In this document: positions 2,920 to 18,356 of the stretch, one piece after another
How positions within the stretch are numbered: position 1 is the first letter of the stretch
Layout of the letters: each line of letters begins with the position of its first letter
IMG/VR virus record: IMGVR_UViG_3300038416_000738
Source of the DNA: a virus
Length of the DNA stretch: 64,000 bases
Direction: 5' to 3' (one strand)
Program-made: the position numbers and the translations under genes
Notes under the pieces: generated by a model
The model's database searches: none
What the model was told of the DNA's origin: nothing
What the model saw: the letters and a program-made list of their open reading frames with translations, nothing else

Positions 2920-3705
2920 ATGTCTTCGTCAGCGCGCGCAATCGGTTCAGGAACGATCTCGTTCGGGCTCGTGTCGATCCCGTTCAAGGTCTACACGACG
3001 GCGTCGTCCCACGACGCGTCGTTCAACATGCTCCACGGCAAATGCGGGAGCCGCATGAAGCAGCAGTACCTCTGCCCGGTCGAGAACGTGGTTGTCGACC
3101 GCACGGAGATGGTGAAGGGCTTCGAGTACGCCAAGGATCGGTACGTCCAGTTCACGGCCGAAGAGCTGAAGAAGCTCGAACCCGCGAAGACCGATTCGCT
3201 CGAGATCGTCGAGTTCGTGCCGGAGGAGAGCGTCGATCTCGCGTACCTCGAAAAGAGCTACTACATCGGGCCGGACAAGGGCGCCGGAAAATCGTACCAG
3301 CTCCTCGCGCAGGCGATGAAGGTCGCGAAGAAGATCGCGGTCGGCCGCTACTGGACGCGCGGGCGCGTGCAGCTCGTCCTCATTCGCCCGTACCGCGGGG
3401 GCCTCCTCATGTCGTACGCGTACTACGCGAGCGAGGTGCGCGCGTTCGAGGGCATCGCGCCGAGCGAGAAGACGGAGTTCAAGGAAATCGAGCTGGATCT
3501 CGCGGCGCAGCTCATCAAGCGGCTCGAAACCCCGGCATTCAAGGCGGACAAGTACAAGGACGAGTACCAGGACCGCATCCGGGACGCGGTGGACCAGAAG
3601 ATCGCGGGCAAAGAGATCAGCCTGCCCGACGCGGCGCCTCCGGCGATCATCGTCGACCTCTTCGAGGCGCTCAAGCGCAGCATCGCGGCGGGGATGGGGA
3701 AGTGA
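2920..3705 (+). CDS. ku: Ku DNA end-binding protein (NHEJ)
   Basis: N-terminal 'ISFGLVSIPFKVYTA' Ku core motif, ~260 aa, C-terminal extension typical of bacterial/phage Ku; GGTGAGG RBS. Confidence 0.85.
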   Translation: MSSSARAIGSGTISFGLVSIPFKVYTTASSHDASFNMLHGKCGSRMKQQYLCPVENVVVDRTEMVKGFEYAKDRYVQFTAEELKKLEPAKTDSLEIVEFVPEESVDLAYLEKSYYIGPDKGAGKSYQLLAQAMKVAKKIAVGRYWTRGRVQLVLIRPYRGGLLMSYAYYASEVRAFEGIAPSEKTEFKEIELDLAAQLIKRLETPAFKADKYKDEYQDRIRDAVDQKIAGKEISLPDAAPPAIIVDLFEALKRSIAAGMGK

Positions 3706-4909: not shown

Positions 4910-4944
4910 GCGAGTTCGTGAAAGGAAAGAAGAAGGAGAAGACC

Positions 4945-5217: not shown

Positions 5218-5297
5218 CGCGGCGCGCGGGTGACGCTGTTCGGTTCGGTGCGCGGAAGGGACTTGCGGGGGAACCGCGAACGACTTATAATCCTAAG

Positions 5298-7316
5298 GTG
5301 ACAAAACGGTATGATTGCGAAGAGAGGCATGAAGTGAACAAGGTGAGCAGGGCGGCGACGAAAGACAAGGCGATGGCGGTGGCGGCGGGGATCTCCGCGT
5401 TCGCGGGGATGCTCTCGCTCGCGGGCCTCTTCGGCCCCTTGGGCGACGCGATCGGGCACGTGCTCTCGGCGTCGCTCGGGGTCGTCGCTTGGGCCGGCGT
5501 CTTGATGCTCGTGCTCGGAGCCGCGTCTCTCTGGCGCGGCAAGGGTTACAAGGCTTTCCGCGGCTTCACGGATGCGGGACTCGTGCTCGTCTTCGCAACG
5601 CTCGTCCGCGTCTGGGGCGGCGATGGCGGGTTCTTGGGTGCGGGCCTCGGCGATCTCGCGGAGTCTGGGCTCGGGACCGTGGGGGCGTCTCTCATGGCGC
5701 TCTTCCTTGTTTTCCTGGTCTTCGCGTCCCGCGTCGACCTCCGCAGTATCGCGGCGCGCCGTGGTCGTAGTGGCGCGGCGCCGCTTCGTCCGGTGCGTGC
5801 GGACATGCCGCACACGCAGCCGATGTCTCCCGCGCCGGGGGCTTGGGCGGCGGAGCCGGAGTCGCTCGCGCCGGTGTCGGTCGCGGACGCCTGCTCGCAG
5901 GAAGATGCGGATGCGGGGACGTCATCGCCGGTGCCTTCGTCGTCGGTGCCTTCGTCGTCGGTGGCGTCGGAGCGGGAATCGTGGGAGCCGGAGTCGTCTT
6001 TCTCTGCGACGCTTCCTTGCGTCTCCGCTCCCGACGGGATCGGGTTCAAGAGCCGCGTTGTCCGCGAGTTCGAGAAGCCGGCGACGTCGCTTCTCTTGCG
6101 CACTGAAGCGTGCGCGGGCGCGGCCGGCGATGCGCAGCTCGCCGAAGAGTCTCGCCACCTCGTTTTGACGCTCTCGTCGTTCGACGTCGAGGCGAGCGTG
6201 CTCGCGGTGGTCCCGGGTCCGGTCGTCACGACGTTCGAGTGCGGGATCGAGGCAGGCACGAAGCTCTCGAAGGTGATGGGGCTCGAGGGGGACTTGTCGC
6301 TCGCGTTCGGCCGCAAGGTCCGCGTCGTGCCGTCGCGCCTCGGGCGCGTCGGGTTTGAGGTGCAGAACGAGGAGCGTGCTGCGGTAGGCCTTCGCGAGCT
6401 TCTCGAGGACGCGCGCTGGGAAGAGGCGAAGAAGTCGGCCTCGCTCCCCGTCGTGATCGGGCGCGACGTTCGCGGCGAGGGTGTCTACGCGGACCTCGCG
6501 ACGATGCCGCACCTCATCGTGGGCGGCGCGACGGGGTCGGGTAAGAGCGTGGGCACGAACGTTCTCTTGTCGTCGCTCCTCTTCGCGCGCTCGCCGGAAG
6601 AAGTCCGCCTCGTGCTCATCGACCCGAAGGTCGTCGAGCTTCAGCCCTACGCGGGCGTGCCGCACCTGCTCTGCCCGGTCGTGACGGAAGCGGATCGAGC
6701 GATCCGCGCGCTCTCGTGGTGCTGCGAAGAGATGGATCGTCGCTACCAGCAGCTCGCTCGCGGGGGGGTCAAGAACCTCGCGTCGTTCAACGGCAAGGTC
6801 TCGCGCACCGAGCGCATGCCGTTCATCGTGGTCGTGGTCGACGAGCTTGCCGACCTGATGATGCAGGAGAAGAAGGCCGTCGAGCCGCTCCTCGTGCGGC
6901 TCGGGCAGAAGGCGCGCGCCGCGGGCATCCACGTCGTCGTCGCCACGCAGCGCCCGTCCGTCGACGTCGTGACGGGGCTCATCAAGTCGAACTTCCCTTC
7001 GCGGGTGGCTTTTCGCACGGCGCAGGCGATTGACAGCAAAGTCGTGCTCGACGAGCAGGGCGCGGAGCACCTCCTCGGCAGGGGCGACGCGCTCGTGAAG
7101 ACCGGCGACTCGGATGCGCTCGTTCGGGTCCAGGTTCCGATGGTCACGGAGGACGAAGTCGGCGCGGTTGTCGGGCACCTTCGCTCGCAGGGCTTGCCGA
7201 ACTACGACGCGAGCATCCTCGCGGAATCCGAGCCCGTGGTGCTCGGAGACGACGGCAAGAGCGGTAAGCGGGGCAGCAAGCGCGCCGCTCGTGCGCCGGG
7301 GAAGGTGTGGTCGTGA
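5298..7316 (+). CDS. FtsK/SpoIIIE-family DNA translocase
   Basis: N-terminal multi-TM region, S/P-rich linker, C-terminal motor with Walker A GGATGSGKS, 'VVVVDELADLM' Walker B, 'ATQRPSVDV'. Confidence 0.9.
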   Translation: MTKRYDCEERHEVNKVSRAATKDKAMAVAAGISAFAGMLSLAGLFGPLGDAIGHVLSASLGVVAWAGVLMLVLGAASLWRGKGYKAFRGFTDAGLVLVFATLVRVWGGDGGFLGAGLGDLAESGLGTVGASLMALFLVFLVFASRVDLRSIAARRGRSGAAPLRPVRADMPHTQPMSPAPGAWAAEPESLAPVSVADACSQEDADAGTSSPVPSSSVPSSSVASERESWEPESSFSATLPCVSAPDGIGFKSRVVREFEKPATSLLLRTEACAGAAGDAQLAEESRHLVLTLSSFDVEASVLAVVPGPVVTTFECGIEAGTKLSKVMGLEGDLSLAFGRKVRVVPSRLGRVGFEVQNEERAAVGLRELLEDARWEEAKKSASLPVVIGRDVRGEGVYADLATMPHLIVGGATGSGKSVGTNVLLSSLLFARSPEEVRLVLIDPKVVELQPYAGVPHLLCPVVTEADRAIRALSWCCEEMDRRYQQLARGGVKNLASFNGKVSRTERMPFIVVVVDELADLMMQEKKAVEPLLVRLGQKARAAGIHVVVATQRPSVDVVTGLIKSNFPSRVAFRTAQAIDSKVVLDEQGAEHLLGRGDALVKTGDSDALVRVQVPMVTEDEVGAVVGHLRSQGLPNYDASILAESEPVVLGDDGKSGKRGSKRAARAPGKVWS

Positions 7317-7543: not shown

Positions 7544-7680
7544 TGCCGCCGCTGTACTTCTTGATGCTCCTCGCGGTGACGGGGCTTCCGCCCGCCGTGC
7601 TCGTCTTCTGCCTCGTCGCGAACGAGGTGCGGTGGAATCGATGGCGCCGGGAGAACCTTGAAGGGGGAATGGAATCATGA
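7540..7680 (+). CDS. hypothetical small membrane protein
   Basis: ATG overlapping previous TGA; one hydrophobic helix; 46 aa. Confidence 0.3.
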   Translation: MMPPLYFLMLLAVTGLPPAVLVFCLVANEVRWNRWRRENLEGGMES

Positions 7681-8338: not shown

Positions 8339-9007
8339 ATGTCAACTCATCCCACGTACCTCCCGAAGAAGGACACTCAGCCCTGGCGCATCCTCAAGCT
8401 CCTCTCTGCGCGGATGCCGCTCACCTCCGCCCAGGTCGCCGCGGAGCTTTCGCTCGGCGTGAGGGTGACGGTGCAGGCGCTCTACCTCCTCGCCCATCGC
8501 TACGGATTCGTCTACCAGGGCAAGTCGATGAGCGGCTATCTCCTCACGAAGAAGGGCCACGCCATTGCGCGGCGCCTCGGGTTCAGCGGGAAAGCGCTCG
8601 GGAAGACGGTCGTGGAGGATTCTTCTTCTCCTTCTCCCGCATCGCCCAGGCGCGGGCACGGCGCGAAAGGCGAGGGCGGTGTGAAGCGTGTGGGGCGGCG
8701 CCAGGCGAAGCGTGGCGCCGAGAGCGTCGCCGTCGTCGCAGGTGACGACGATCTCGCGCGCATCATCCGCGAGCAGCAGGACAGTAAGCGCAAGGGAATG
8801 AGGGCCAAGCGCACAGGCACGCAGGTTCCGTCCCTGCCGGTCATCACGGGGGCGGGGGCCGGTGGGGCGGGCGCGGGCGCGAGGGCTTTCGCCGAGAAGC
8901 ATCCCGATCTCGTCAAGGAGCGCGCGGCTTGTCTCGCGCGCGTCGCGGCCATCGACGCTTACGCCGAAGCTTGTGAGAAGCTCTACGCGTCGAGCTTGGG
9001 GGGTTGA
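8339..9007 (+). CDS. putative winged-helix DNA-binding protein
   Basis: N-terminal ~90 aa resemble MarR/wHTH fold (LTSAQVAAELSL...VQALYLL); basic linker; weak. Confidence 0.45.
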   Translation: MSTHPTYLPKKDTQPWRILKLLSARMPLTSAQVAAELSLGVRVTVQALYLLAHRYGFVYQGKSMSGYLLTKKGHAIARRLGFSGKALGKTVVEDSSSPSPASPRRGHGAKGEGGVKRVGRRQAKRGAESVAVVAGDDDLARIIREQQDSKRKGMRAKRTGTQVPSLPVITGAGAGGAGAGARAFAEKHPDLVKERAACLARVAAIDAYAEACEKLYASSLGG

Positions 9008-9339
9008 GCGTGAAGTCGAAGATGAAGTCGAAGTCGGGGCGCAACGTTCCGAGCGAAGTCACGCGGTCGATCAACTTCCGGGTCCCGAAGTCCTGGGTCG
9101 GCAAGGTCGACGTACTACGAAAATCGAGCCTCGTTCCTGTGGAAGTCTCGCGCACGGCGATGTTTCGTTTCGCGCTGGGTCATGGACTCGAAATGCTCAT
9201 GAAGGGGAAGGGGAAGGGGAAGGGGAAGGGGAAGGGGAAGGGGAAGGGGAAGGGGACGGGCAAGAGCGCGATTCGCCCTGCCCGCTCGAGCAGTTCGCGT
9301 ACGCGGCGAGGTACCACGCGGAAAGCAGCACGAAGATGA
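9004..9339 (+). CDS. ribbon-helix-helix protein with (KG)9 repeat
   Basis: 'SINFRVPKSWVGKVD...RTAMFRFALGHGLEML' RHH-like; hexamer repeat encodes KGKGKG...; ends in ATGA overlap. Confidence 0.5.
   Translation: MSVKSKMKSKSGRNVPSEVTRSINFRVPKSWVGKVDVLRKSSLVPVEVSRTAMFRFALGHGLEMLMKGKGKGKGKGKGKGKGKGTGKSAIRPARSSSSRTRRGTTRKAARR
9202..9255 (+). repeat. (AAGGGG)x9 perfect hexanucleotide tandem repeat inside CDS
   Basis: counted directly; in frame = (Lys-Gly)9. Confidence 0.9.
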
Positions 9340-9557
9340 CAAGTGCGCGTCGAGTCATGGAGAAAAGAGTCCCGTTCTTCGTCGACAAGATCGCAGGCGC
9401 TTTGGGTTCGCTCAAGTGGGGCGTGTATGAGAGGATGGACTTCGGTGGGCAAGGAGAAGGGAAAGGAAAGACTCAGCTCGTCGCGTCATGGAGCAAGCGA
9501 TCCGAAGCCCGCGAGGCCGTGAGGCAGTTGAACAAGGAAGAGCGTGACAGCGGGTGA
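9336..9557 (+). CDS. hypothetical protein
   Basis: ATG in ATGA overlap with previous stop; C-terminal part of 8862..9557 frame with protein-like composition. Confidence 0.4.
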   Translation: MTSARRVMEKRVPFFVDKIAGALGSLKWGVYERMDFGGQGEGKGKTQLVASWSKRSEAREAVRQLNKEERDSG

Positions 9558-9825
9558 AACGCGCGTGAGCAAGGTTACCCTCTCGCCCAGGGCGAACGCC
9601 CGATACCTGATTCTCGAGGTCGAAGGCGACGCTAGCGTGTCGGTCTCGATCTCGAAGGAAGAGGGCCACCAGATCATCGCGCTCGAGATGGACAGCCCCG
9701 AGACATCGTCGTCACTCGGCCTCGCCCTCGTCGGTTGGCTTTCGAGGACGAGCTGGGATGGGGCGAGCGGGTTCGCGGGCAGCGAGCCTGCGAAAGCGCC
9801 GGGAAAGAGAAGGAGGCGCCGGTGA
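9544..9825 (+). CDS. hypothetical protein
   Basis: ORF track; start overlaps previous gene end. Confidence 0.35.
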   Translation: MTAGETRVSKVTLSPRANARYLILEVEGDASVSVSISKEEGHQIIALEMDSPETSSSLGLALVGWLSRTSWDGASGFAGSEPAKAPGKRRRRR

Positions 9826-9853
9826 GCGTGGGGTATCCTTCGGGACAGCGGAC

Positions 9854-10177
9854 ATGACGTGGCGTCCTAACCGGAAGCTGTACCTGTTCCACGTCGAGGA
9901 GTTCGACGCGCGACGCGAGAGTTGGTTTTATTGCGGCATCGTGCTCCTTCCCGACAACGCGACGCGGGGAGAAGTCGCGCACGCGCTCAAGGTCTTCGGG
10001 ATGGCATGCCCGAGGGAATCGGACCGCGTGTCGTGGAGTTACGTCATGCTTCCTGGCCCGGACGGCAAGGGGATGCTCCCGCGGCCGAGGGCGCACGTGC
10101 AGACCGGGGCGGGGGCGCCGATATGCCGGCTCGTGGTGAAGCCGAGCGCCGCGCGCCGCGTGCGTGAGGGCGGTTGA
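9854..10177 (+). CDS. hypothetical protein
   Basis: ATG 9854 in frame with ORF 9758..10177; composition protein-like (W/Y/F-rich). Confidence 0.45.
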   Translation: MTWRPNRKLYLFHVEEFDARRESWFYCGIVLLPDNATRGEVAHALKVFGMACPRESDRVSWSYVMLPGPDGKGMLPRPRAHVQTGAGAPICRLVVKPSAARRVREGG

Positions 10178-10250
10178 GATCGATTCTGCGAGCGGCACTC
10201 TTGACAGAAGAGGTCGTCAGACGAATACCCATTGAGTGGTTCCCAATTTG

Positions 10251-10313
10251 TTTGACGAATGATGACTTGATCTGCTAAGTCATCCTCTGCGTGTGAGAGT
10301 CTGCGTGTGAGAG
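10251..10313 (+). promoter_or_regulatory. promoter/operator region: TTGACG-N18-TAAGTC with 8-bp inverted repeat GATGACTT-N8-AAGTCATC and 13-bp direct repeat x2
   Basis: read directly in 225-bp intergenic gap upstream of the histone-like gene. Confidence 0.4.
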
Positions 10314-10402
10314 GCTCGTTTCCCGGATCGAGGAAGGACCCGCGCCATAGGTGCGCGACGGGTCCTGTTCCGGGGGCGACCGCAAGCGAAAGTGATAAGT
10401 CG

Positions 10403-11212
10403 ATGGGCAGCAAGAAGGTGAAGGTGCACGGCTCGAAGAACACGAAGACCGTTGCGAAAAAGGCGAAGGCCGTTGCGAAAAAGGCGAAGACCGTCGCGAA
10501 GCCGGTCGCGGTCGCGGCGAAGCGGGCGAAGAAGGGTGGAGCGAAGGCGGCTGCAAAGGTCGCCGTGACCGTGGCGCCGGGCTTGAAGACGCCGGGCGCC
10601 GTCGCCGCGACGTTCTCAGCCGAGCGTCCCGGGTACCTGCCGCGCGAGGGATCGCTCCCCGACATGATCTTCCGCCGGCTGATGGACAAGCCCATGCCCT
10701 ACGGCGAGCTTGCCCGGCACCTCGAAGCGGACTCCAAGCTCACGGGCGACGCGCTCACGAGCCAGCTCTCCGCGGCGCTCTACGATCTCTGCAACAAGCG
10801 CGGCGTCCTCGTTCGCGTCGACTACGACACGTTTCAGCCTGTTCCGGCGAGTCGTTCGCGCGGTGCCCTCTACACGGTCGCGGATCGTGCCCGTGCGGGG
10901 TACGAAGCGCGCAGCAAGCTCAGCGCCAAAAGGGGTGCGAGCGTGCCGACTGCCGCAGGGCCTGGACAGCTCGATTTGACGAGCTTCGGGCGCCCGATGA
11001 ACGGTGCCGCGTCGGCTGCGTCGGTTGCATCGGCGGCGACTGCGCAGGTGAGCGATGCGATGCTGATCGTGCTTCCCAAGCCCGAGAAGATGAGCGACGC
11101 GATGTACGCGGAGCTTCGCGCAGCGCGGCAGGCGGCGGCCGACCAGGTCCGTCAGGCGACGGAAGCGATCACTGCGATCGATCGCCTCCTCAAGGTTCCG
11201 AGCTTCTCCTGA
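10403..11212 (+). CDS. histone H1-like lysine/alanine-rich DNA-binding protein
   Basis: N-terminal AKKAKAVAKKAKTVAKPVAVAAKRAKKGGAKAAAK repeats typical of bacterial H1/Hc1-like proteins; globular C-terminal domain. Confidence 0.65.
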   Translation: MGSKKVKVHGSKNTKTVAKKAKAVAKKAKTVAKPVAVAAKRAKKGGAKAAAKVAVTVAPGLKTPGAVAATFSAERPGYLPREGSLPDMIFRRLMDKPMPYGELARHLEADSKLTGDALTSQLSAALYDLCNKRGVLVRVDYDTFQPVPASRSRGALYTVADRARAGYEARSKLSAKRGASVPTAAGPGQLDLTSFGRPMNGAASAASVASAATAQVSDAMLIVLPKPEKMSDAMYAELRAARQAAADQVRQATEAITAIDRLLKVPSFS

Positions 11213-11223
11213 GGGGCAGTTCC

Positions 11224-12804
11224 GTGCTTCGTCCTTCCGTTGAAACCGAACGCCTCTCGACCGTGCAACGCGCCGCGCGGCACGTGCTCGACAAGGTCTC
11301 GCGAGGCGAGTCCGGTTTCGGCTCGATGGAGGTCTTCCCGTCCGACGTGCCGAGGGCGCTCTCGGGATCAACGGAGTACATCTGGCGTGCGCAGCTCGCG
11401 TGGGCCTGGTGGAAGGCGGCCTATCTCTCGTGCAGAATCCTGGGGCGCGGGGTCGGCAAGCATCGGAACTACACGCTCCTGCCTGCGGGTCGCGAAGCGC
11501 TCGAGCGAATCGCGAGCGATCCAGTCCTCGCGTCGTTCTACGTGAAGGCGAAGCGGAACACGGCTTCCGAGAGCTATCCCTCGGATTGGTTTCGGCCCGA
11601 AGCTCTCCGGGCGCCTCCTCCGAAGGAGGAGGACGCGGAAGAGCAGGACGCGGAAGAGGAGGACGCGGAAGAGGAGGACGCTGAAGACGAAACTTCTGTG
11701 GGAGGACAGGAAGAGCAAGGGCCTGCCTCCGAGGACAGGGAGAAGGATAGGAGCACGGGCATCGAGGTCGAACGCGAGCGACGTTGGGATCTCATGATCG
11801 GTGTGCTCGAGAAGGTGAGCACGCAATTCGGTGACTTGAAGACCGAGATCACTTCCCTCAAGGCCGAGGTCAAGGCGCAGTCGGATTTCGTGCTCGAGGT
11901 CGCACAAAGGATCGAGGCTTCGAGCCGGTCGAGCGTGACGAGCGTGCCGAGCGTGACGCGTGAAGATCTCGGGCGCGTCTCGGCAGAAATCGTGCAAGCG
12001 ATCGTTTCGGAGAAGACGAAGCTCCTTCACGTCGGCGCCAATTTTCTCGAATCCATTCGTTCCGTGCATTCGAAGCTCGACGAGGAGGAGCAGCGCCGGC
12101 AGGCGTGGGGCGAGAAGCTCTTGGCGTCGGTCGGCGGGATCGGATCCGAAGTTGCGGTACTCGCGAAGCGCGGAAAATCGCATGAGGAACTCGAAGTCTT
12201 CATCTCGGGACGCATTCAGCAGCTCGCGGACGACCTGAGGGGCGACCAAGAGGATCTTCTCGAGGCGGCTGCCGAGACCTTCGACAAGCGTCTCGGTGCG
12301 CTCGACAAACGTGTGGCCACGGCTGTCGCGAAGACGCCGGACTTGAGCGGCTTCAAGGAGGATCTGGCTGGCTTGAGGGAGGACTTCTCCGGCGTGAGGG
12401 AGGACTTCTCGAGCGTGCGCGAAGACGTGGAGGCGCTGCTCGAGTCGATCGACGAGTTCGATAAGGGCTTCATCTCGAGGCTCGAGGAGTACAAGAAGCA
12501 GGGCTCGGCGACGAACGAGACCTTCGTGCGCGTGACCGAGGGCGTGCAGGACATTCTGCGTGCGACGCGCGCCGTTTGCAGTGCGATGGTAGAGGTCAGC
12601 GTGCAGCGCAGCGCGGCGGCGGGTGCGTCGCCGGAGGAGATTCGCAGGAGGGCCGAGGGCGCGATCGACACCTTGGAGACTGCCTCGAAGGCGATCAAGG
12701 GGCGCGTGTCCTCGCTCGGCGCGGGCATCATCAAGAACACGGCTTTCGATGTGGACGACGGCGACAGCGACGGTGACAAGGGTGCGGAGGAAGAAGAGTC
12801 ATGA
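11224..12804 (+). CDS. large coiled-coil protein with acidic EEDAEE repeats
   Basis: 526 aa; 18-bp imperfect repeats at ~11625-11690 encode (EEDAEE)n; long heptad-like regions. Confidence 0.6.
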   Translation: MLRPSVETERLSTVQRAARHVLDKVSRGESGFGSMEVFPSDVPRALSGSTEYIWRAQLAWAWWKAAYLSCRILGRGVGKHRNYTLLPAGREALERIASDPVLASFYVKAKRNTASESYPSDWFRPEALRAPPPKEEDAEEQDAEEEDAEEEDAEDETSVGGQEEQGPASEDREKDRSTGIEVERERRWDLMIGVLEKVSTQFGDLKTEITSLKAEVKAQSDFVLEVAQRIEASSRSSVTSVPSVTREDLGRVSAEIVQAIVSEKTKLLHVGANFLESIRSVHSKLDEEEQRRQAWGEKLLASVGGIGSEVAVLAKRGKSHEELEVFISGRIQQLADDLRGDQEDLLEAAAETFDKRLGALDKRVATAVAKTPDLSGFKEDLAGLREDFSGVREDFSSVREDVEALLESIDEFDKGFISRLEEYKKQGSATNETFVRVTEGVQDILRATRAVCSAMVEVSVQRSAAAGASPEEIRRRAEGAIDTLETASKAIKGRVSSLGAGIIKNTAFDVDDGDSDGDKGAEEEES

Positions 12805-13670
12805 TGACGCCGATGAAGAAGCTCGCGCTCGCCGAGCGCAAGGAGTACGACGCGGCGAAGCCGGAGGAGCGTAAGGCGTGCGGAAAGGCGGGTATCGGGG
12901 CTTTCATCCACATGCGTCATCCGGACGTGATGGTGAACAACGTGCGGCATCGCTGCCGGCTCCTCGCAGCAGGCGATGCTGCGGACATCTTCTGGGCGCG
13001 TGTCGAGGATGGGATGCCGCTCGTGACGGCCGTCACGCTTTTCGCCGAGTGCGCGCGCGTCTGGCGTGAGAAGAACGGCAAAGGCGAAGGCGTGACCCAG
13101 GACGACGTCATCCGTGAACGGCTCATCCGGTACGACAGCGAGGGCCACATCCGGACAACGGCGGCTGGCAAGGTGTACCGGGCCTCGTCGACCTTCGGGC
13201 GCTCGAAGCGCATCGCGAGCGGCGAGGAGTCGGCCAAGAAGACCCCGTCTGGACGCCACAAGACGATCGTGCGTGAGGCCATCGCTGCTTGGATCGCCTC
13301 GCGTTTGCCGAAGAACGACGAGCGCGCTGCGGCGTGGGCCATGGAGGCGATGCGCGAGGTCGAGCTGCTCCTCACGACGTTCTCGAACCGTTTCTCGAAC
13401 CAGCCGCCCGACAAGAGCGGTCTGAGGAACGCGTGCGACTTACTCGGGATCCCGAGGCCGGTGTGGGGCAGGCCCGCGGACCAGGCCCGTGCACGGAAGA
13501 ACCAGCGCGCGGCGCTGAGGAAGATTCATCCGGACGTGATCGGCGACGACAGCGGGGTCGAAGCGTTCCAGGCCATCAACGACGCCTATGAGGCCATCGT
13601 CGCCTACAACGACAGCCTCGGTAGCAGGAACGGAAATGGGAACGGTAACGGTAACGGAGAGAAGGAGTGA
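12801..13670 (+). CDS. J-domain (DnaJ-like) protein
   Basis: C-terminal 'ARKNQRAALRKIHPDVIGDD...AFQAINDAYEAI' with the invariant HPD tripeptide; (NG)5 tail. Confidence 0.7.
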   Translation: MMTPMKKLALAERKEYDAAKPEERKACGKAGIGAFIHMRHPDVMVNNVRHRCRLLAAGDAADIFWARVEDGMPLVTAVTLFAECARVWREKNGKGEGVTQDDVIRERLIRYDSEGHIRTTAAGKVYRASSTFGRSKRIASGEESAKKTPSGRHKTIVREAIAAWIASRLPKNDERAAAWAMEAMREVELLLTTFSNRFSNQPPDKSGLRNACDLLGIPRPVWGRPADQARARKNQRAALRKIHPDVIGDDSGVEAFQAINDAYEAIVAYNDSLGSRNGNGNGNGNGEKE

Positions 13671-13675
13671 CACGC

Positions 13676-14245
13676 ATGGCTTCCAAGCACGACAAACACG
13701 ACCTCATGAGCATCCTCGAAGAGTGGGAGCCGAGTCCCGACGACACGGGGCTCGCGAGTCGCGGGGCGTCGCTCCTCAACTACGCGGCGGAGCGCAAGCC
13801 CGGCGCGCCGATCCCTTGGCCGATGATGACGAAGAAGATTCTCGGCATCGCGCGGATGCCGAGCGCCGACTCGAAGATCGTGATCGACATGCGCAAGCGC
13901 GCCTCGCAGATCCGTCTCGTGCTCGAGCGCGACTACAAGCGCGGGCTCGACAACATCGCCGGCCTCGGCGTGCGCGCGACGTTCAGCGACGACGACTTCG
14001 CGAACACGACGCTCACGCGCGCCGCCAAGCAGCACGAGCGCTCGGGCCGAAAGCTCATCGAGAAGCGCGCGCTCGTCGACCCGAAGAAGATGAAGAACAA
14101 GAAGTTGAAGACGTGGGTCGAAAATCTCTCGCCGGTGCTCACGTCGCACAACGATCGTTTGCTCAAGCTCCTCTTGCCGCCCGGCGAGGAGAAGGGCGAC
14201 GAGGAAGGCGGCAAAGAAGGCGGCAAGGATGGGTCGAAGAAGTGA
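13676..14245 (+). CDS. hypothetical protein
   Basis: ATG 13676 in ORF 13667..14245; K-rich C-terminus. Confidence 0.5.
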   Translation: MASKHDKHDLMSILEEWEPSPDDTGLASRGASLLNYAAERKPGAPIPWPMMTKKILGIARMPSADSKIVIDMRKRASQIRLVLERDYKRGLDNIAGLGVRATFSDDDFANTTLTRAAKQHERSGRKLIEKRALVDPKKMKNKKLKTWVENLSPVLTSHNDRLLKLLLPPGEEKGDEEGGKEGGKDGSKK

Positions 14246-14253
14246 GCGCGCAG

Positions 14254-14574
14254 ATGAACGCGGATTCGGGTGCGCTTTCGGAGATTGACATGCTCATGAA
14301 GGCGAGGCAGTCGGATCCCAGCCACGCTTTCAAAAGCGAGCTGCGTTCTCTCTTCGACGATTTCAAGGCGAGGGTAGGCCGCGATCCGGACGAGCGCGAG
14401 AGGCAGGCCATCGTGTTCTGGCTCGCCGGCGAGTGGATCTCCATCGCAGCTTTCGCGTGCGGGCGGGTGGATGCGAGCTTCTCGAGCGTCGCGGAGCGCG
14501 TCCGCTCGGAGTTCGAGCGCGGGCTCCGGAAGATGGTAGACGACGGGACAGCGCGAGCCGTGGAGCAGGAATGA
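14254..14574 (+). CDS. hypothetical protein
   Basis: ATG 14254 (alt GTG 14242) in tail of ORF 13588..14574; W/F-containing composition. Confidence 0.45.
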   Translation: MNADSGALSEIDMLMKARQSDPSHAFKSELRSLFDDFKARVGRDPDERERQAIVFWLAGEWISIAAFACGRVDASFSSVAERVRSEFERGLRKMVDDGTARAVEQE

Positions 14575-15392
14575 AGCCTTTTCTTAAATGGGCCGGCGGT
14601 AAGACGAAGCTCGTGCCGACCATCCTCGCGCGCGTTCCCGTGTTCGAGGGCTCGTATCACGAGCCTTTCGTTGGCGGCGGCGCCGTGTTCATGGCGCTCC
14701 ATGCGGCCGGCAAGCTCTCGCGTGCGCACCAGGTGGGCTATGCAGTCCTGAACGACGTGAACGCGGAGCTGATGAACGCGTACGCGGTGGTGCAGGACGG
14801 GGCCACGGACTTCGTGAAGAAGCTCCTCGAGATCAAGCACTCGAAGGAGACGTACTACAAGGTGAGGGCCAAGGAAGAAACGGAGCCGCTCGCGCGCGCT
14901 GTGCGTTTTTGTTACCTCAATAAAACCTGTTTTAACGGCCTCTATCGCGTGAATCGCGCCGGGCACTTCAACGTCCCCATCGGAGACTACAAGAACCCGG
15001 TCATCGTGGAGCCCGACGTCGTCGCCGCATGGCACGCGGCACTCGCGGGCGTGACGCTCCGCTCCGAGGACTTCGAGCCGCGCATCCTCGCCGCGAAGAG
15101 GGGCGACTTCATCTACGTGGACCCGCCGTACCTGCCGCGCTCGAAGACCGCCGACTTCACCTCGTACACGGCGGATCGCTTCGCGCTGAAAGAGCACGAG
15201 CGGCTCGCAGCGGCGCTCGTGACGGCAGACCGTCGCGGCGCGAAGTTCATCGCGAGCCAGGGCGACAGCGAAACGATCCGTGCACTCTACAAAGAGTTCG
15301 GGATCGAGAGCGTCTCGGTGACGCACGCGATCGCCGCGAAAAAAGCGTCGCGTGTGAAGGTCGGCGAGGTTCTGATTTCGAACGTGCGCTGA
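14571..15392 (+). CDS. dam: DNA adenine methyltransferase (Dam/D12-class, GATC-type)
   Basis: N-terminal 'KPFLKWAGGK' SAM motif, 'NKTCFNGLYR', catalytic 'DPPY'; ATG in ATGA overlap. Confidence 0.85.
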   Translation: MKPFLKWAGGKTKLVPTILARVPVFEGSYHEPFVGGGAVFMALHAAGKLSRAHQVGYAVLNDVNAELMNAYAVVQDGATDFVKKLLEIKHSKETYYKVRAKEETEPLARAVRFCYLNKTCFNGLYRVNRAGHFNVPIGDYKNPVIVEPDVVAAWHAALAGVTLRSEDFEPRILAAKRGDFIYVDPPYLPRSKTADFTSYTADRFALKEHERLAAALVTADRRGAKFIASQGDSETIRALYKEFGIESVSVTHAIAAKKASRVKVGEVLISNVR

Positions 15393-15733
15393 TCCGGGTC
15401 GCGACCGGACTGCGACGGAGAAAAATCGTACGTCGAAGTGTCACATCAACTTTCCGAGCGCAACTTTCGGCAAGTACATTTCTGATCGCGCTCATGCATC
15501 ATTGCCGCGTCATGCCGCTCGATTTTTTCGGTTGACCGTCCCGGTCGCAGCCCACTATTGCATCCCGAGTCGAGGCGACTCGACGAGCTGACGCCAGGGC
15601 TAGGTGCCTGGAAGCCGGCAACCTGAAGGAGAAGGTCGAACGAGCGTTCCCTCGTGAGACTGTCCTCCGAAGGAAGATGTCCGTCCGAACGCCGGGGTGC
15701 CGGCGGGGCGGCTCACGGGGAAAGGTGTGCCCG

Positions 15734-16246
15734 ATGGGTGAGATCAGAGAACTGACGATCGCGCAGGCGCTTCGGCGCATCAAAGACATCAAGGGCAAGA
15801 TCGCGAAGCACGCGCAGAACGCCCAGTCGAGCGTGACGCACAAGACGAAGAGCGTGCCCGCGTACGTCTTCTCCACGGAGCTGGAGCTTTCGCAGCAGTT
15901 CGTCTCGGAGATGATCGATCTCCAGACGCGCGTGGCCGTCGCGAACACGAAGGCGACCGTCGACTTTGAGGGCAAGTCGAGGCCGCTCACCTGGTGCACG
16001 AAGAGGCTCGCGGAGCTGAAGGGCGCCATCGCGTGGCACGAGGCCCTGCCCGTCCGCGCGCAGGACAAGACGGTCGAGGAGGAGAGCGTGTGGAACTCGA
16101 AGCTCGCGGACAACGTGAGCGTGGAGGTGGAGTACACGTGCCACTTGCCCGAGGCGAAGAGGGCCGAGAGGGTCGCGGCGCTCCAGGCGAAGTTCGCCGA
16201 GCTGAACGACCTCGTGGAGACGATGAATCACCGCACGCCCGTGTGA
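15734..16246 (+). CDS. hypothetical protein
   Basis: ATG 15734 with GGAAAGG RBS; flanked by two >300-bp non-coding regions. Confidence 0.5.
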   Translation: MGEIRELTIAQALRRIKDIKGKIAKHAQNAQSSVTHKTKSVPAYVFSTELELSQQFVSEMIDLQTRVAVANTKATVDFEGKSRPLTWCTKRLAELKGAIAWHEALPVRAQDKTVEEESVWNSKLADNVSVEVEYTCHLPEAKRAERVAALQAKFAELNDLVETMNHRTPV

Positions 16247-16447
16247 GGGAGGCGGTGGCAAGTTCCGGGGGCGGAAGGTGGAAGAGAGGACGGGCGATAG
16301 GAGCATCAATTCAGGACGGCGCAAGCCTTCCCTCGCCTATTCGGTACGGACACCCGCGGTCAGCGCTCAGACAGTGGCAGCGATGAGCTTCGAGGATTCA
16401 AGGGTGAAGCGTAGAGCGGTGAACAAAGCTCTCGCGCTCGTTTGATC

Positions 16448-16474
16448 GGAAGCCTTCCGCTTCCCGGATTTTTT
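16448..16474 (+). terminator. rho-independent terminator (GGAAGC-cttcc-GCTTCC + T6)
   Basis: perfect 6-bp stem followed 4 nt later by TTTTTT. Confidence 0.5.
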
Positions 16475-16515
16475 AGATTCCTAAAGTTCTGCCTTGGCAC
16501 TTTTGTGCCGGGGTG

Positions 16516-16545
16516 GGTTCGTGGTTCGTGGTTCGTGGTTCGTGG
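16516..16545 (+). repeat. (GGTTCGT)x4 tandem heptamer repeat upstream of RBS
   Basis: counted directly; preceded by GGCAC-tttt-GTGCC hairpin at 16496-16509; 24 nt before ATG 16569. Confidence 0.8.
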
Positions 16546-16568
16546 AAAAAACAACAGGAGCAATTGCT

Positions 16569-17117
16569 ATGGCCAAAGACAACGTGAAGAACGCACCGGC
16601 GCAGGCGCCGGCCGCGGAAGAAGGAATGAGCGAGTGGACGGGCAAGTTCGGCGGCAGCGTCGACGGATGGTGGAGCCCGCCCGAGGAAGCCGGCACGTAC
16701 GTGATGAAGGGCATCCTCGTGAACTTCATCAACAAGGACCGGAGCGACAAGCTCCAGTCGAACTCGCTCGTCTTCGAGCTGCTCGAGGACTGCGAGTTCG
16801 TCAAGAACGGCGGCTCGGAGAAGCTCAAGGGCGCGAAGGGCGACATCGTCAAGGCGCCCAAGGGCACGACCATCGGTGTCCCCGAGTGGAAGCAGCTCGA
16901 AGGCATGTGGCCGAACAAGGCGGGCTTCAAGGCGTACATCACCCACCCGGGTGCGCGCCGCCCGATCGGCAAGGGCCGCTCGATGCTGGAACTCAAGATC
17001 CAGATGTCGAACGGCGCGGTTCGCCACGTCGAGGTCCACGAGGAAGAGGACACGAGCGACGCGGCGGGCGGCGGCATGGCCCCCGAGGAGAAGTTCCAGG
17101 TCGAGACGGCTTCCTGA
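16569..17117 (+). CDS. hypothetical protein (probably highly expressed)
   Basis: AGGAG RBS; own upstream regulatory region and a strong terminator immediately downstream. Confidence 0.6.
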   Translation: MAKDNVKNAPAQAPAAEEGMSEWTGKFGGSVDGWWSPPEEAGTYVMKGILVNFINKDRSDKLQSNSLVFELLEDCEFVKNGGSEKLKGAKGDIVKAPKGTTIGVPEWKQLEGMWPNKAGFKAYITHPGARRPIGKGRSMLELKIQMSNGAVRHVEVHEEEDTSDAAGGGMAPEEKFQVETAS

Positions 17118-17144
17118 GAAGTCAGATCGAGGAACGATGAAGGA

Positions 17145-17183
17145 AGCGGGCGCTGGAAGGAGACTTCGGGCGCCCGCTTTTTT
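17145..17183 (+). terminator. rho-independent terminator
   Basis: perfect 9-bp stem AGCGGGCGC/GCGCCCGCT with 16-nt loop followed by TTTTTT. Confidence 0.7.
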
Positions 17184-17200
17184 CTATGAAGGAGGAGAGA

Positions 17201-17638
17201 ATGAACAAGCTTCGACTTTACATCGCCACCGCCTCGAACCCGCTCGAGGAAGCAGAGCGCAGGATCGCTGACGCGAGGGCCGCAGGGTTCGAGATCACGC
17301 ACGACTGGACCAAGGACGTTCGGAGCGCGGGGAATGCTTCGCCGGATGACCCGAGGATTCGGACGTCTGCCGCGAAGGCCGATCTTCGTGGGGTAGAGAC
17401 GGCCGACGTCGTGTGGCTCATTCAGCCCGAAAACGCGAGCACCGGGGCGTGGGTCGAACTCGGTTACGCCTTGGCGCTGAAGGAGGCCGAAAACTCGAAG
17501 CACGCCGCGAAGCGTCCGAGGATCGTGGTCTCCGGCGCTTCCACGCGCTGCATCTTCGCCGACCTCGCCGACGATCGCTTCACGGATCACGACGACGCTT
17601 TCGTCTTCATCCGCGGGATGCTCGGAGCTTCGACATGA
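17201..17638 (+). CDS. nucleoside 2-deoxyribosyltransferase-like (Rossmann) protein
   Basis: GAAGGAGGAG RBS; 'VWLIQPENASTGAWVELGYALA' matches the G-x-x-x-E-x-G-x-A motif of the NDT/DNPH1-like family. Confidence 0.55.
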   Translation: MNKLRLYIATASNPLEEAERRIADARAAGFEITHDWTKDVRSAGNASPDDPRIRTSAAKADLRGVETADVVWLIQPENASTGAWVELGYALALKEAENSKHAAKRPRIVVSGASTRCIFADLADDRFTDHDDAFVFIRGMLGAST

Positions 17639-17865
17639 GCGCGGCGACCGCGTTCCCCAAGGCGACGGAGTCGTCCGCCGCGCTCGCGAGCGAGTGGAAA
17701 GAGAAGACGGGGTGGAACCCGACGCCGGAGGAATACCAGCGTTACCTCGCTCGCGAGATCGAGATGGCAAAGGAGAACATCGCGAAGGGGTGCCCCGCGG
17801 ACGTCGTGCTCCATTCGTCGCGCACCGTCACGCTCGTGCGTGAAGAGCTGCAGAAAGGGAAATGA
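17635..17865 (+). CDS. hypothetical protein
   Basis: ATGA overlap; 76 aa. Confidence 0.45.
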   Translation: MSAATAFPKATESSAALASEWKEKTGWNPTPEEYQRYLAREIEMAKENIAKGCPADVVLHSSRTVTLVREELQKGK

Positions 17866-18356
17866 CCATGGCGAGGATTCCTGGAACGACTTTCCACGAC
17901 GCAGACCCTCCCAAGGCGGATCCGAAGAGCCTCAACACCCTGCGCGATGCGGCGTACGACAACGCTAAGGCGCACGGCTTTCACGACCAACCGCGCACGA
18001 TGGGCGACGGGATCGCTTTGCTCCACACCGAGATCTCGGAAGCGTTCGAAGCGTACCGCGAAGGCGGCGGCGTGGCCGAGATCTGGTACGAGGAGAAAGT
18101 GCCCGCGTACCACGAGAGCGGTGCGCCCATCCTCTCACGCGGCAAGCACGTCTCGGTCGTGGTGGTGCACGAGCGCCAGAACGACGACCCCGAGCGCCCG
18201 TACAAGCTCTGCGGAGTCCCGTCGGAGATCGCGGACCTCTTGATCCGCGCATTCGACTTCGCGGGCGAGCACCGGATCGACATCGAGAAGTTCGTGCTCG
18301 AGAAGATGGCCTACAACAAAACGCGATCGTTCAAGCACGGCAACAAGGTCCTGTAG
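17862..18356 (+). CDS. MazG-like nucleotide pyrophosphohydrolase
   Basis: 'LLHTEISEAFEAYRE' (E-x-x-E) and 'EIADLLIRAFDFAGEHRIDIEKFVLEKMAYNKTR' typical of the all-alpha NTP-PPase fold. Confidence 0.7.
   Translation: MTMARIPGTTFHDADPPKADPKSLNTLRDAAYDNAKAHGFHDQPRTMGDGIALLHTEISEAFEAYREGGGVAEIWYEEKVPAYHESGAPILSRGKHVSVVVVHERQNDDPERPYKLCGVPSEIADLLIRAFDFAGEHRIDIEKFVLEKMAYNKTRSFKHGNKVL

What the first reader, a model, noticed from the sequence alone, without database searches (positions are those of the whole stretch)
5298..7316. Full-length membrane-anchored FtsK/SpoIIIE translocase on the element
This is a complete FtsK-type motor with an N-terminal multi-TM domain, which is atypical for a phage. 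Actinomycete ICEs use such proteins (TraB-like) for dsDNA conjugative transfer. Membrane-containing phages use FtsK-HerA ATPases for packaging. Its presence argues the element may move as dsDNA by a non-canonical route.
Basis: partly seen in the sequence, partly recalled or inferred. Interest (0 to 1): 0.5.

Follow-up and report, generated by a model that had tools for sequence, protein, structure and literature searches.

The report
Membrane-anchored, gamma-less FtsK of giant element
The gene is real and encodes a membrane-anchored FtsK-type DNA pump that has lost the domain which reads chromosome polarity signals, and it is a conserved core gene of a rare, undescribed family of roughly 210-600 kb mobile elements probably hosted by myxobacteria.

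Summary
The ORF at 5298-7316 is real; the likely start is GTG 5334, giving 660 aa. It encodes a bona fide FtsK-family dsDNA translocase: four N-terminal TM helices, a disordered ~100-aa linker, then alpha and beta motor domains about 45% identical to solved FtsK motors. It is not "full-length". The gamma winged-helix domain (KOPS reading, XerD activation) is absent. In its place is a 26-38 aa flexible tail ending in a conserved [KR]-V-[WL]-S-COOH, present in 31 of 32 clade members. The protein sits in a small clade (81% NJ bootstrap; about 5-6 clusters among 1.84 billion representatives) beside Polyangia-type chromosomal FtsK. So it is an old, remodelled capture, not a recent one. All members seen in context lie on gene-dense, mostly one-strand contigs of 67-600 kb, in a conserved FtsK–Dam–MazG–SNF2 backbone. 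The window's contig (261.5 kb) has a left end reproduced in independent assemblies, 15 kb upstream of ftsK. TraB and packaging-ATPase membership tests fail, and no clt-like repeats were found. Soluble FtsK-like motors are common in phages; membrane-anchored ones are rare. No phage or conjugation hallmark gene was found in the 64 kb, so the element's nature and the pump's biological role remain inferred.

The parts
5334..7316 (+). ftsK-like gene, 660 aa (the maximal ORF starts at GTG 5298, 672 aa)
   Evidence: ORF list and translation. Identical 660-aa product P0001 in public assemblies. Pfam, NCBIfam and PDB hits.
5286..5327 (+). Promoter-like perfect -10 hexamer TATAAT (5286-5291) and ribosome-binding site GAGAGG (5322-5327), in the 116-nt intergenic spacer upstream of GTG 5334
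   Evidence: Read directly from the sequence. The consensus scanner did not call a full sigma-70 promoter, so this is an inference.
5337..5732 (+). N-terminal four-helix membrane domain (residues 2-133 of the 660-aa protein), homologous to FtsK_4TM
   Evidence: Hydropathy. AF2 helices 2-30, 34-67, 74-93 and 99-133 with pLDDT 73-85. PF13491 passes its cut-off in 5 of 10 clade members; the window protein scores 10.7 bits. Precomputed PF13491 hits exist in P0007, P0011 and P0014.
5757..6062 (+). Disordered Pro/Ser/acidic linker (residues 142-243)
   Evidence: AF2 pLDDT about 30. Contains 15-nt coding tandem repeats at 5925-5998.
6078..6362 (+). FtsK alpha domain
   Evidence: PF17854, E 3.2e-13.
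6390..7229 (+). FtsK beta (RecA-like) motor domain. Walker A at 6525-6548 and Walker B at 6825-6845. It lacks the 24-56 aa insert that chromosomal Myxococcota FtsK carries before Walker B.
   Evidence: PF01580, E 1e-58. Motifs and insert lengths. Foldseek against 6t8b, TM-score 0.88.
7230..7313 (+). C-terminal disordered tail that replaces the gamma domain. The terminal tetrapeptide K-V-W-S is encoded at 7302-7313.
   Evidence: AF2 pLDDT 34-42. 31 of 32 clade members end in [KRT][VLQ][WL]S, and the rest of the tail is variable.
2920..3705 (+). Context: Ku homologue (261 aa), upstream of ftsK. The gene order is Ku, then 140 aa, 200 aa, 90 aa, then FtsK. Ku was seen only in this element's lineage.
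   Evidence: PF02735, E 4e-43. Gene call. 30% identical to Omega gp206. The same Ku-x-x-FtsK order occurs in phage Omega.
8339..9007 (+). Context: 222-aa protein whose N-terminus reads as a winged-helix DNA-binding domain (my reading of the sequence; Pfam found no family at E<=0.01), 1 kb downstream of ftsK. It is conserved next to ftsK in a second element (L134). Other relatives carry an unrelated HTH protein at the same place.
   Evidence: Alignment A4, 40% identity. Pfam faint HTH hits in L005 and L007. Not related to FtsK gamma (hhalign probability 0.1%). Pfam on the 222-aa protein itself: no family.
9004..20228 (+). Context: conserved backbone that follows ftsK in all close relatives examined. 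It comprises a 111-aa ORF (9004-9339), a 139-aa ORF (9758-10177), Dam-type MTase (14571-15392), a 170-aa protein (15734-16246, 64-67% identical across elements), a 182-aa protein (16569-17117), an NDT-like protein (17186-17638), MazG (17862-18356) and an SNF2 helicase (18357-20228).
   Evidence: tblastn synteny against L004, L005 and L007. Pfam and PHROG hits. Alignment A2.

Best explanation
The gene encodes an active, hexameric, ATP-driven double-stranded-DNA pump of the FtsK family. It is tethered to the host inner membrane by an FtsK-type four-helix domain and lacks the gamma domain. It therefore cannot read KOPS-type polarity signals or switch on XerCD.

It is not a passenger gene. It is a core gene of a rare family of gene-dense elements of roughly 210-600 kb. 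The window's element is a 261.5-kb contig whose left end recurs in independent assemblies, which would fit a linear genome. Its closest cellular gene relatives are in Polyangia-type Myxococcota.

The most likely role is inferred, not shown. The pump would sit at the membrane or closing septum like cellular FtsK and move the element's own very large DNA out of harm's way or into a daughter compartment. A linear or dif-less replicon needs no dimer resolution, which would explain why gamma could be lost. Loading or direction would come from the membrane geometry and from a partner that docks on the conserved C-terminal x-V-W-S peptide, held on a flexible tether.
For: Shown:
- Motor identity and intact catalytic motifs.
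- A four-helix membrane domain homologous to FtsK_4TM.
- Absence of gamma, and a disordered tail in its place.
- A terminal [KR]V[WL]S in 31 of 32 clade members, on an otherwise variable 26-38 aa tail. This is the signature of a short docking motif.
- A monophyletic clade with 81% NJ bootstrap. Motor identity averages 63% within the clade, 56% to Myxococcota chromosomal FtsK, and 48% to Omega gp203 and E. coli FtsK.
- Only about 5-6 clusters at 50% identity among 1.84 billion representatives.
- Conserved synteny FtsK–Dam–170 aa–MazG–SNF2 on contigs of 67-600 kb.
- Its own promoter-like -10 element and RBS.
- A reproducible contig end about 15.0 kb upstream of ftsK in independent ENA and JGI assemblies, with near-identical total lengths of 261,538 and 261,519 bp. 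The terminus is G-rich and repetitive.
- ftsK also lies 14-22 kb from a contig end in related 279-kb and 285-kb contigs.

From established knowledge: FtsK gamma binds KOPS and activates XerD (PMC3130261, abstract in the listing). Linear replicons do not form dimers through crossovers.
Against: - No experiment or expression data exist.
- The septal-clearance role is extrapolated from cellular FtsK.
- The window protein's own 4TM score is below Pfam's cut-off.
- Whether the element is maintained in dividing cells (plasmid-like or lysogen-like) is unknown.
- No partition, replication-initiator, capsid or conjugation genes were recognised in the 64 kb.
- The partner of the tail is unknown. A positionally conserved TPR protein upstream is not detectably homologous between elements and is absent from two of them.
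- The reproducible contig end could also be an assembly break at a G-rich repeat in a circular genome.
Confidence: 0.5

Rival explanations
1. TraB-like conjugative pump: the protein exports the element as double-stranded DNA into a neighbouring cell, as Streptomyces TraB does.
For: The protein is membrane-anchored and in the FtsK family. The contig start carries ArdC-N/MPTase and HicA genes, which are common on conjugative elements. Myxobacteria live in tight cell contact (general knowledge).
Against: NCBIfam TraB scores 58.8 bits against a cut-off of 800, while the FtsK model scores 347 bits. There is no C-terminal winged-helix domain to read clt repeats. No cluster of 8-bp repeats lies near the gene. 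No T4SS, relaxase or Spd-like genes were seen in 64 kb. The likely host has two membranes (OmpA-domain protein in the window), which a lone inner-membrane pump cannot span.
Confidence: 0.1
2. Genome-entry pump of a giant virus-like element: the gene lies in the first about 6% of a genome with fixed ends. It would be expressed early and pull the remaining roughly 245 kb through the inner membrane, a functional analogue of T5 second-step transfer.
For: ftsK sits 14-22 kb from a reproducible contig end in three related elements. All genes from 2.7 kb onward point away from that end. The neighbours are early or anti-defence-like: ArdC, Ku, Dam, SNF2. A membrane-fixed pump needs no KOPS reader. IMG/VR motor-only phage FtsK-likes often end in Trp-rich basic tails that resemble membrane-targeting helices (the resemblance is from memory). 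That would make membrane association a shared requirement.
Against: It has not been shown that the element is a virus. No virion genes were found in the window. Its JGI contigs are not in IMG/VR. In the 209-kb and 600-kb relatives the gene is not near that end. No precedent is known to me.
Confidence: 0.12
3. Capsid-packaging ATPase of a membrane-containing virus, of the FtsK-HerA/A32/PRD1 P9 type.
For: It belongs to the same ATPase superfamily. No terminase was recognised in the window. The element is not recognised as a tailed phage by IMG/VR.
Against: Packaging ATPases of that class are small, lack the FtsK alpha domain, and are only remotely related to FtsK. This protein is 45% identical to cellular FtsK motors, and HerA/DUF87 is sub-threshold. 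No jelly-roll capsid gene was seen. Only 25% of the contig was examined. According to a 2021 review, no membrane-containing prokaryotic virus of large size is known (PMC7824862).
Confidence: 0.05
4. Host take-over: the gamma-less copy goes to the divisome, mixes with or displaces host FtsK, and blocks chromosome dimer resolution or division to the element's benefit.
For: It retains the divisome-targeting type of N-terminal domain but lacks the XerD-activating domain. The motor is 56-59% identical to Myxococcota FtsK, close enough for mixed hexamers to be conceivable.
Against: Catalytic motifs are fully conserved across a clade that has diverged to 44-50% full-length identity. That argues for selection on pumping, not just on occupancy. 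The conserved terminal motif is left unexplained.
Confidence: 0.1
5. Ordinary or recently captured host ftsK: a chromosomal gene or fresh passenger with no element-specific role.
For: The nearest cellular relatives are Polyangiaceae FtsK. GC content is similar to that of Polyangiaceae MAG contigs.
Against: The clade is separate. Three architectural changes are shared by the whole clade: no gamma domain, no pre-Walker-B insert, and the KVWS tail. Synteny is conserved in at least five diverged elements. The neighbourhood consists of one-strand, ORFan-rich small genes.
Confidence: 0.03

Closest known systems
Chromosomal FtsK of Myxococcota (Polyangiaceae/Sorangium type); more broadly E. coli and P. 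aeruginosa FtsK
   Same: A 4TM N-terminal domain, a disordered linker, and alpha and beta motor domains. The motor is 56-59% identical to Myxococcota FtsK and 44-46% identical to the solved motors, with TM-score up to 0.88.
   Different: There is no gamma (KOPS/XerD) domain. The linker is short, about 100 aa. The 24-56 aa insert before Walker B is missing. The C-terminal tail carries the KVWS motif. The gene is encoded on a mobile-element-like contig rather than in a chromosome.
Phage-encoded FtsK-like motors: cluster J mycobacteriophages (Omega gp203) and Bacillus gamma-like and SPO1-like phages
   Same: An FtsK alpha-beta motor encoded by a large mobile genome. It is 47% identical to Omega gp203. 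The Ku – two or three small genes – FtsK order matches Omega. Function is unknown in all of these phages (PMC3706429; PMC4113786).
   Different: The phage proteins lack the membrane domain (PMC3706429; 34 of 36 IMG/VR examples). Omega has a different ~90-aa C-terminal domain. The small genes lying between Ku and FtsK are not homologous to Omega's.
Streptomyces TraB (conjugative dsDNA translocase)
   Same: A membrane-associated FtsK-family hexameric dsDNA pump on a mobile element. It needs no XerCD.
   Different: Sequence relation is only distant (58.8 bits against a cut-off of 800). There is no C-terminal wHTH and no clt or TRS repeats. The host envelope is of a different type.
F-plasmid TraD–TraM coupling (functional analogy only, from memory)
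   Same: A hexameric membrane-anchored DNA-transport ATPase whose flexible C-terminal tail ends in a short conserved peptide. In F, that peptide docks a DNA-bound adaptor.
   Different: The ATPase family branch is different. No adaptor has been identified here. The analogy is untested.

Membership tests
FtsK/SpoIIIE chromosomal DNA translocase | Alpha plus beta motor domains with Walker A, Walker B and the arginine-finger region | tested here: met
   PF17854 E 3e-13; PF01580 E 1e-58. PDB FtsK E 2e-97. Motifs intact. Foldseek TM-score 0.88.
FtsK/SpoIIIE chromosomal DNA translocase | N-terminal 4TM membrane or divisome domain (PF13491) | tested here: met
   Four helices in AF2. Five of 10 clade N-termini pass the Pfam cut-off; the window protein alone is sub-threshold at 10.7 bits.
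FtsK/SpoIIIE chromosomal DNA translocase | C-terminal gamma winged-helix domain (PF09397) that reads KOPS/SRS and activates XerD | tested here: not met
   No PF09397 hit. Only a 28-aa disordered tail follows beta. All about 30 clade members lack it, whereas chromosomal hits carry it.
FtsK/SpoIIIE chromosomal DNA translocase | Housekeeping chromosomal locus | tested here: not met
   One-strand, ORFan-rich context with Ku, Dam, MazG, SNF2, ArdC and HicA. NCBIfam FtsK equivalog scores 347 bits against a cut-off of 1566.
TraB (actinomycete conjugative translocase) | Match to NCBIfam NF041214 at its cut-off | tested here: not met
   58.8 bits against 800.
TraB (actinomycete conjugative translocase) | C-terminal wHTH plus a clt locus of repeated 8-bp TRS motifs near the gene | tested here: not met
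   No C-terminal domain. No such repeat cluster in 1-12000. The only 8-bp tandem (GGCGGTGA x4) lies 15 kb away at 22317-22348.
FtsK-HerA-type viral packaging ATPase (PRD1 P9 / STIV B204 / A32) | Small stand-alone HerA/A32-like ATPase without an FtsK alpha domain | tested here: not met
   DUF87/HerA scores 17.9 bits, below the 23.2 cut-off. A full FtsK alpha domain and a 4TM domain are present.
FtsK-HerA-type viral packaging ATPase (PRD1 P9 / STIV B204 / A32) | Linked double-jelly-roll capsid gene and internal-membrane virion | not testable with these tools
   Only 64 kb plus about 10 kb of the 261.5-kb contig could be read. Nothing capsid-like was recognised there.
Phage-encoded FtsK-like motor (cluster J type) | Gamma-less FtsK alpha-beta motor in a bona fide phage genome, with no membrane domain | tested here: inconclusive
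   The motor is 47% identical to Omega gp203. However, a membrane domain is present, and the phage nature of this element is unproven.
Type VII secretion EssC/EccC | Multiple tandem FtsK-like ATPase domains; equivalog score | tested here: not met
   A single ATPase domain. Scores of 105 and 97 bits against cut-offs of 778 and 509.

The most novel reading that the evidence does not exclude
The KVWS-type FtsK is the DNA-delivery or DNA-packaging motor of a new lineage of giant (about 260-600 kb), probably linear, virus-like elements of Myxococcota that are not tailed phages. This would be a bacterial counterpart of the large membrane-associated viruses that use FtsK-superfamily pumps. It would explain three things: why no terminase, portal or HK97 capsid gene was seen, why the JGI contigs are absent from IMG/VR, and why the pump is membrane-anchored and needs no polarity reader.
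Probability: 0.08. Interest if true: 0.9.

Novelty: new variant of a known kind. Interest (0 to 1): 0.5.

Why it matters
FtsK homologues on phages and plasmids have been noted for twenty years without an assigned function. This clade offers a cleaner handle than the soluble phage motors. It keeps the membrane anchor, has shed exactly the domain that ties FtsK to chromosome polarity and dimer resolution, and has gained a short invariant C-terminal peptide that should identify its partner. It also flags an undescribed family of very large elements, about 210-600 kb, nearly all ORFans. That family has no nucleotide match in a 50,697-record phage collection and no close FtsK relative in IMG/VR, in the 80 best GTDB species-representative hits, or in PLSDB plasmids. 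If the pump is the element's segregation, entry or packaging machine, it bears on how very large mobile genomes are physically handled in bacteria.

Tried and rejected
- **Nucleotide search against phage records.** Two segments of the window (4000-9000 and 37000-61000) gave no match.
- **IMG/VR scans.** I scanned with the protein, the clade alignment, the 778-aa ORF, the 170-aa backbone protein and its alignment. No close relative was found.
- **GTDB-representative and JGI metagenome scans with the clade alignment.** Absence there cannot be claimed.
- **PLSDB plasmids.** Only motor-level hits at 48% identity or less were found.
- **KOPS-like polar words.** The most skewed 7- and 8-mers are purine-rich codon strings (GAAGAAG and similar). 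These are explained by all genes lying on one strand, so the test was uninformative.
- **clt-like repeats near ftsK.** None were found.
- **'Gamma in trans'.** The 71-aa ORF downstream has no Pfam hit. The downstream 222-aa protein that reads as a winged-helix protein shows no profile similarity to gamma (hhalign probability 0.1%).
- **TPR protein as receptor for the tail.** It is conserved in position in 4 elements, but it is not detectably homologous between them and was not seen in two others. The idea is kept only as a weak lead.
- **Homology of the Ku–FtsK intervening genes with Omega gp204 and gp205.** None was found.
- **Walking beyond the window end.** This failed: one wrong start codon, then only short JGI fragments were returned. 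The 261,519-bp JGI contig's DNA was not returned either.
- **Hallmark search in the window.** Pfam, PHROGs and NCBIfam on about 90 ORFs, with small ones concatenated, found no capsid, portal, terminase, tail, T4SS, relaxase, integrase or partition gene.
- **My own coordinate error.** I first placed Ku at 3042-3827, which is the wrong frame. It is corrected to 2920-3705.
Full report
**1. The observation**

The + strand carries an uninterrupted ORF at 5298-7316 (672 codons). Its GC3 is 0.86, typical of real genes in this 63-67% GC window. The public gene call starts 12 codons later at GTG 5334 (P0001, 660 aa, 100% identical). The sequence agrees with that start. A perfect TATAAT sits at 5286-5291 and GAGAGG at 5322-5327, six bases before GTG 5334. 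I therefore take 5334-7316 as the gene.

- Pfam gives FtsK_alpha (E 3e-13) and FtsK_SpoIIIE (E 1e-58).
- The best solved relatives are the P. aeruginosa and E. coli FtsK motors (E about 1e-97, 44-46% identity).
- The AF2 model superposes on the DNA-bound FtsK motor 6t8b with TM-score 0.88. This is far ahead of TcpA, EccC/EssC and HerA.
- Walker A (GATGSGKS), Walker B (IVVVVDE) and ATQRPS are intact.

**2. Architecture**

- *Membrane domain.* Hydropathy and AF2 agree on four long N-terminal helices (residues 2-133, pLDDT 73-85). The window protein alone scores only 10.7 bits on Pfam FtsK_4TM. Five of ten clade members pass the curated cut-off and two more come close, so the domain is homologous to the FtsK membrane domain.
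- *Linker.* Residues 142-243 form a disordered Pro/Ser/acidic linker.
- *Motor.* Residues 244-632 are the alpha-beta motor.
- *Tail.* Residues 633-660 are disordered.
- *No gamma domain.* There is no PF09397 hit and no room for the domain. The next ORF (71 aa) has no family hit.

The part of FtsK that reads KOPS and activates XerD is missing.

**3. The family**

A search of 5.8 billion proteins returned about 30 clusters of 597-694 aa proteins that share this architecture. They are 44-84% identical to the query over the full length. Behind them come several hundred Myxococcota chromosomal FtsKs of 750-1100 aa that carry both the 4TM and gamma domains.

On the motor alignment the short proteins form one clade. 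An NJ tree shows it, and it is recovered in 162 of 200 bootstrap replicates. Motor identity of the window protein averages 63% within the clade and 56% (maximum 59%) to Myxococcota chromosomal FtsK. It is 48% to Omega gp203 and to E. coli FtsK.

Three derived characters mark the clade:

- loss of the gamma domain;
- loss of a 24-56 aa insert before Walker B, leaving 10-13 aa;
- a C-terminal tail of 26-38 residues that varies in sequence and charge but ends in [KRT][VLQ][WL]S-COOH in 31 of 32 members.

An exhaustive HMM search of 1.84 billion 50%-identity representatives finds only about 5-6 representatives of this type, so the family is rare. Two other gamma-less groups branch separately: P0029/32/33/44/53 and P0036/37/109/111. 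Whether all gamma-less forms share one origin is unresolved (38% bootstrap).

That is not what is seen. The gene is of Myxococcota type by descent, but it is old and remodelled.

**4. Context**

The window is positions 9,685-73,684 of a 261,538-bp metagenomic contig.

- *Gene organisation.* Every confidently coding ORF in the window is on the + strand, and most are small ORFans.
- *Recognisable genes.* These are TPR, Ku, FtsK, Dam-type MTase, an NDT-like protein, MazG, SNF2 helicase, DHFR, a GH-like putative lysin, HAD_SAK_2 and RlaP (RNA repair), an OmpA-domain protein and an ABC ATPase.
- *Missing hallmarks.* No capsid, portal, terminase, tail, T4SS, relaxase, integrase or partition gene was recognised.
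- *Conserved backbone.* In four diverged relatives, ftsK is followed by the same backbone at 37-67% amino-acid identity. The relatives are contigs of 278,829 bp, 67,190 bp (the same protein also occurs on a 218,816-bp contig), 600,485 bp and 285,329 bp. The backbone is a 111-aa ORF, a 139-aa ORF, Dam, a 170-aa protein, a 182-aa protein, NDT-like, MazG and SNF2. The small genes in between differ.
- *Ku.* It was found only in the window's lineage.
- *Position of ftsK.* It lies 15.0, 22.1 and 14.1 kb from a contig end in the 261.5-kb, 278.8-kb and 285.3-kb contigs. It lies 3.7 kb from the other end in a 208.6-kb contig and mid-contig in the 600-kb one.
- *Reproducible end.* Independent JGI assemblies give a 261,519-bp contig. 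They also give a 63.6-kb contig that stops 14,999 bp upstream of ftsK. The ENA contig stops 15,017 bp upstream.
- *The terminus itself.* The first 145 nt are a G-rich 51-nt repeat, followed by a perfect 9-bp hairpin. At 2.4-2.7 kb there is a divergent, AT-richer spacer with GGCGGATAGG repeats.

I read this as a genome of about 261.5 kb with fixed ends. A circular genome that always breaks at the G-rich repeat is not excluded.

- *Absence from collections.* The element has no nucleotide match in 50,697 phage records. Its JGI contigs are not in IMG/VR.
- *One link to cultured phages.* The 778-aa ORF at 37928-40264 is 43-45% identical to hypothetical proteins of Mesorhizobium phage Cp1R7A-A1 and Erythrobacter phage vB_EliS-L02.

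Whether the element is a virus, a plasmid or something else is therefore open.

**5. Comparison with known mobile FtsKs**

- FtsK-like motors are common in phages. tblastn finds them in 412 phage records, mainly Bacillus phages and cluster J mycobacteriophages.
- The literature records them without assigning a function (PMC3706429; PMC4113786).
- They are soluble. Cluster J proteins lack the membrane domain, and 34 of 36 IMG/VR FtsK-like ORFs that I examined have no TM segment. The membrane anchor is what is unusual here, not the motor.
- Omega has the same Ku – two small genes – FtsK order. The Ku proteins are 30% identical. The intervening genes are unrelated, so a shared module is possible but unproven.
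- TraB membership fails on score (58.8 bits against 800), on the absent C-terminal DNA-reading domain, and on the absence of clt-like repeats.
- Packaging-ATPase membership fails on architecture.
- A 2021 review notes that no large membrane-containing prokaryotic virus using such ATPases is known (PMC7824862).

**6. How it most likely works**

*Shown:* an intact FtsK motor, an FtsK-type membrane anchor, no polarity or XerD module, a tethered invariant terminal peptide, and core-gene status in a family of giant elements.

*Inferred:* the protein forms hexamers on dsDNA at the inner membrane, plausibly at the septum because that is what this N-terminal domain does in cellular FtsK. It would pump the element's own DNA without regard to KOPS.

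- A replicon with fixed ends needs no dimer resolution, which rationalises the loss of gamma.
- The variable tether with an invariant x-V-W-S-COOH looks like a docking motif for a partner that supplies loading or specificity.
- A protein that reads as a winged-helix protein (or, in other relatives, an unrelated HTH protein) is encoded within about 1 kb downstream in every element examined. It is not related to gamma, and its link to FtsK is only positional.

I give the molecular function high confidence. I give the segregation or septal-clearance role about even odds against the sum of the rivals. The rivals are TraB-like export, early genome-entry pumping from the nearby genome end, packaging, and interference with host division.

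**7. Novelty and verdict**

The gene is a new variant of a known kind. It is an FtsK-family translocase with a previously undescribed, clade-defining architecture (4TM – short linker – alpha-beta – KVWS tail, no gamma). It sits on a previously undescribed family of very large elements.

Interest is moderate. The protein itself is a modest surprise. The element it marks, and the untested possibility that the pump is its entry or packaging motor, are the more interesting leads.

Noticed in passing
L009:1-180 (contig positions 1-180, i.e. 9.7 kb upstream of window position 1): The contig begins with a very G-rich stretch of about 145 nt made of a 51-nt direct repeat (copies at 1-51 and 52-102). 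It is followed by a perfect 9-bp hairpin, ATACCTCAC-N6-GTGAGGTAT. Independent assemblies end within 19 bp of the same place and give total lengths of 261,538 and 261,519 bp. This suggests a real genome terminus, or a constant assembly break at the repeat.
   Followed up: partly
L009:2379-2734: This is a divergent, AT-richer intergenic region where transcription switches from the - strand (HicA and ArdC-N/MPTase genes at 272-2378) to the + strand. It contains several copies of a GGCGGATAGG-like motif (2470-2700). It may be an origin or an early control region.
   Followed up: no
window 2920-3705: A Ku homologue (261 aa) lies upstream of ftsK in the order Ku – 140 aa – 200 aa – 90 aa – FtsK. This matches the order Ku gp206 – gp205 – gp204 – FtsK gp203 in mycobacteriophage Omega. 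The Ku proteins are 30% identical and the intervening genes are unrelated. Ku is absent at this place in the four other elements examined.
   Followed up: partly
window 37928-40264: The largest ORF in the window (778 aa, no Pfam, PHROG or NCBIfam hit) is 43-45% identical (E 4e-149 and 8e-133) to hypothetical proteins of two cultured large siphophages, Mesorhizobium phage Cp1R7A-A1 (gene 066) and Erythrobacter phage vB_EliS-L02. It is the only strong link between this element and cultured phages.
   Followed up: partly
window 15734-16246: A 170-aa protein of unknown function is 64-67% identical across five elements, which makes it more conserved than FtsK (about 49%). It has no family hit. From memory it resembles DIP1984-type helical proteins, but this was not tested.
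   Followed up: partly
L026, L028, L030, L031, L032, L034, L047 (IMG/VR loci; C-termini of the FtsK-like ORFs): Soluble, motor-only FtsK-like proteins on IMG/VR contigs (GC 30-59%, contigs up to 340 kb) often end in short basic, Trp-rich tails such as WWSRIWNS, WLRRLWNS, WWRKIWAF and ICDRWRS. Twelve of 36 have a W in the last 8 residues, compared with 9 of 200 long chromosomal FtsKs. From memory they look like amphipathic membrane-targeting helices. They may be related to the KVWS ending seen here.
   Followed up: partly
window 22317-22348 and 16516-16545: There are two perfect or near-perfect short tandem arrays in intergenic DNA: GGCGGTGA x4 and GGTTCGT x4.3. GGCGGTGA occurs 7 times on the + strand and never on the - strand in the window. 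Function is unknown. Neither array is close to ftsK.
   Followed up: no
window 27989-28564 and 49647-50624: A HAD_SAK_2 domain protein and an RlaP-type nucleotidyltransferase are both present. Both are components of 'Swiss-army-knife' RNA-repair systems. A relative (L134) carries an RNA ligase near ftsK. This suggests a counter-defence RNA-repair capacity like that of large phages.
   Followed up: no
window 7677-8273 and 52551-54329: Two host clues. The 198-aa DUF8252 protein just downstream of ftsK has a faint match to the Myxococcus MXAN_6577-like cysteine-rich family (E 0.007). A 592-aa protein carries an OmpA peptidoglycan-binding domain, which implies a host with two membranes.
   Followed up: no
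window 9201-9264: (GAAGGG) x10.7 encodes a (Lys-Gly)n run inside the 111-aa ORF (9004-9339), which is conserved downstream of ftsK in all close relatives. By eye, the N-terminus of that ORF looks like a ribbon-helix-helix DNA-binding fold. This was not tested.
   Followed up: no
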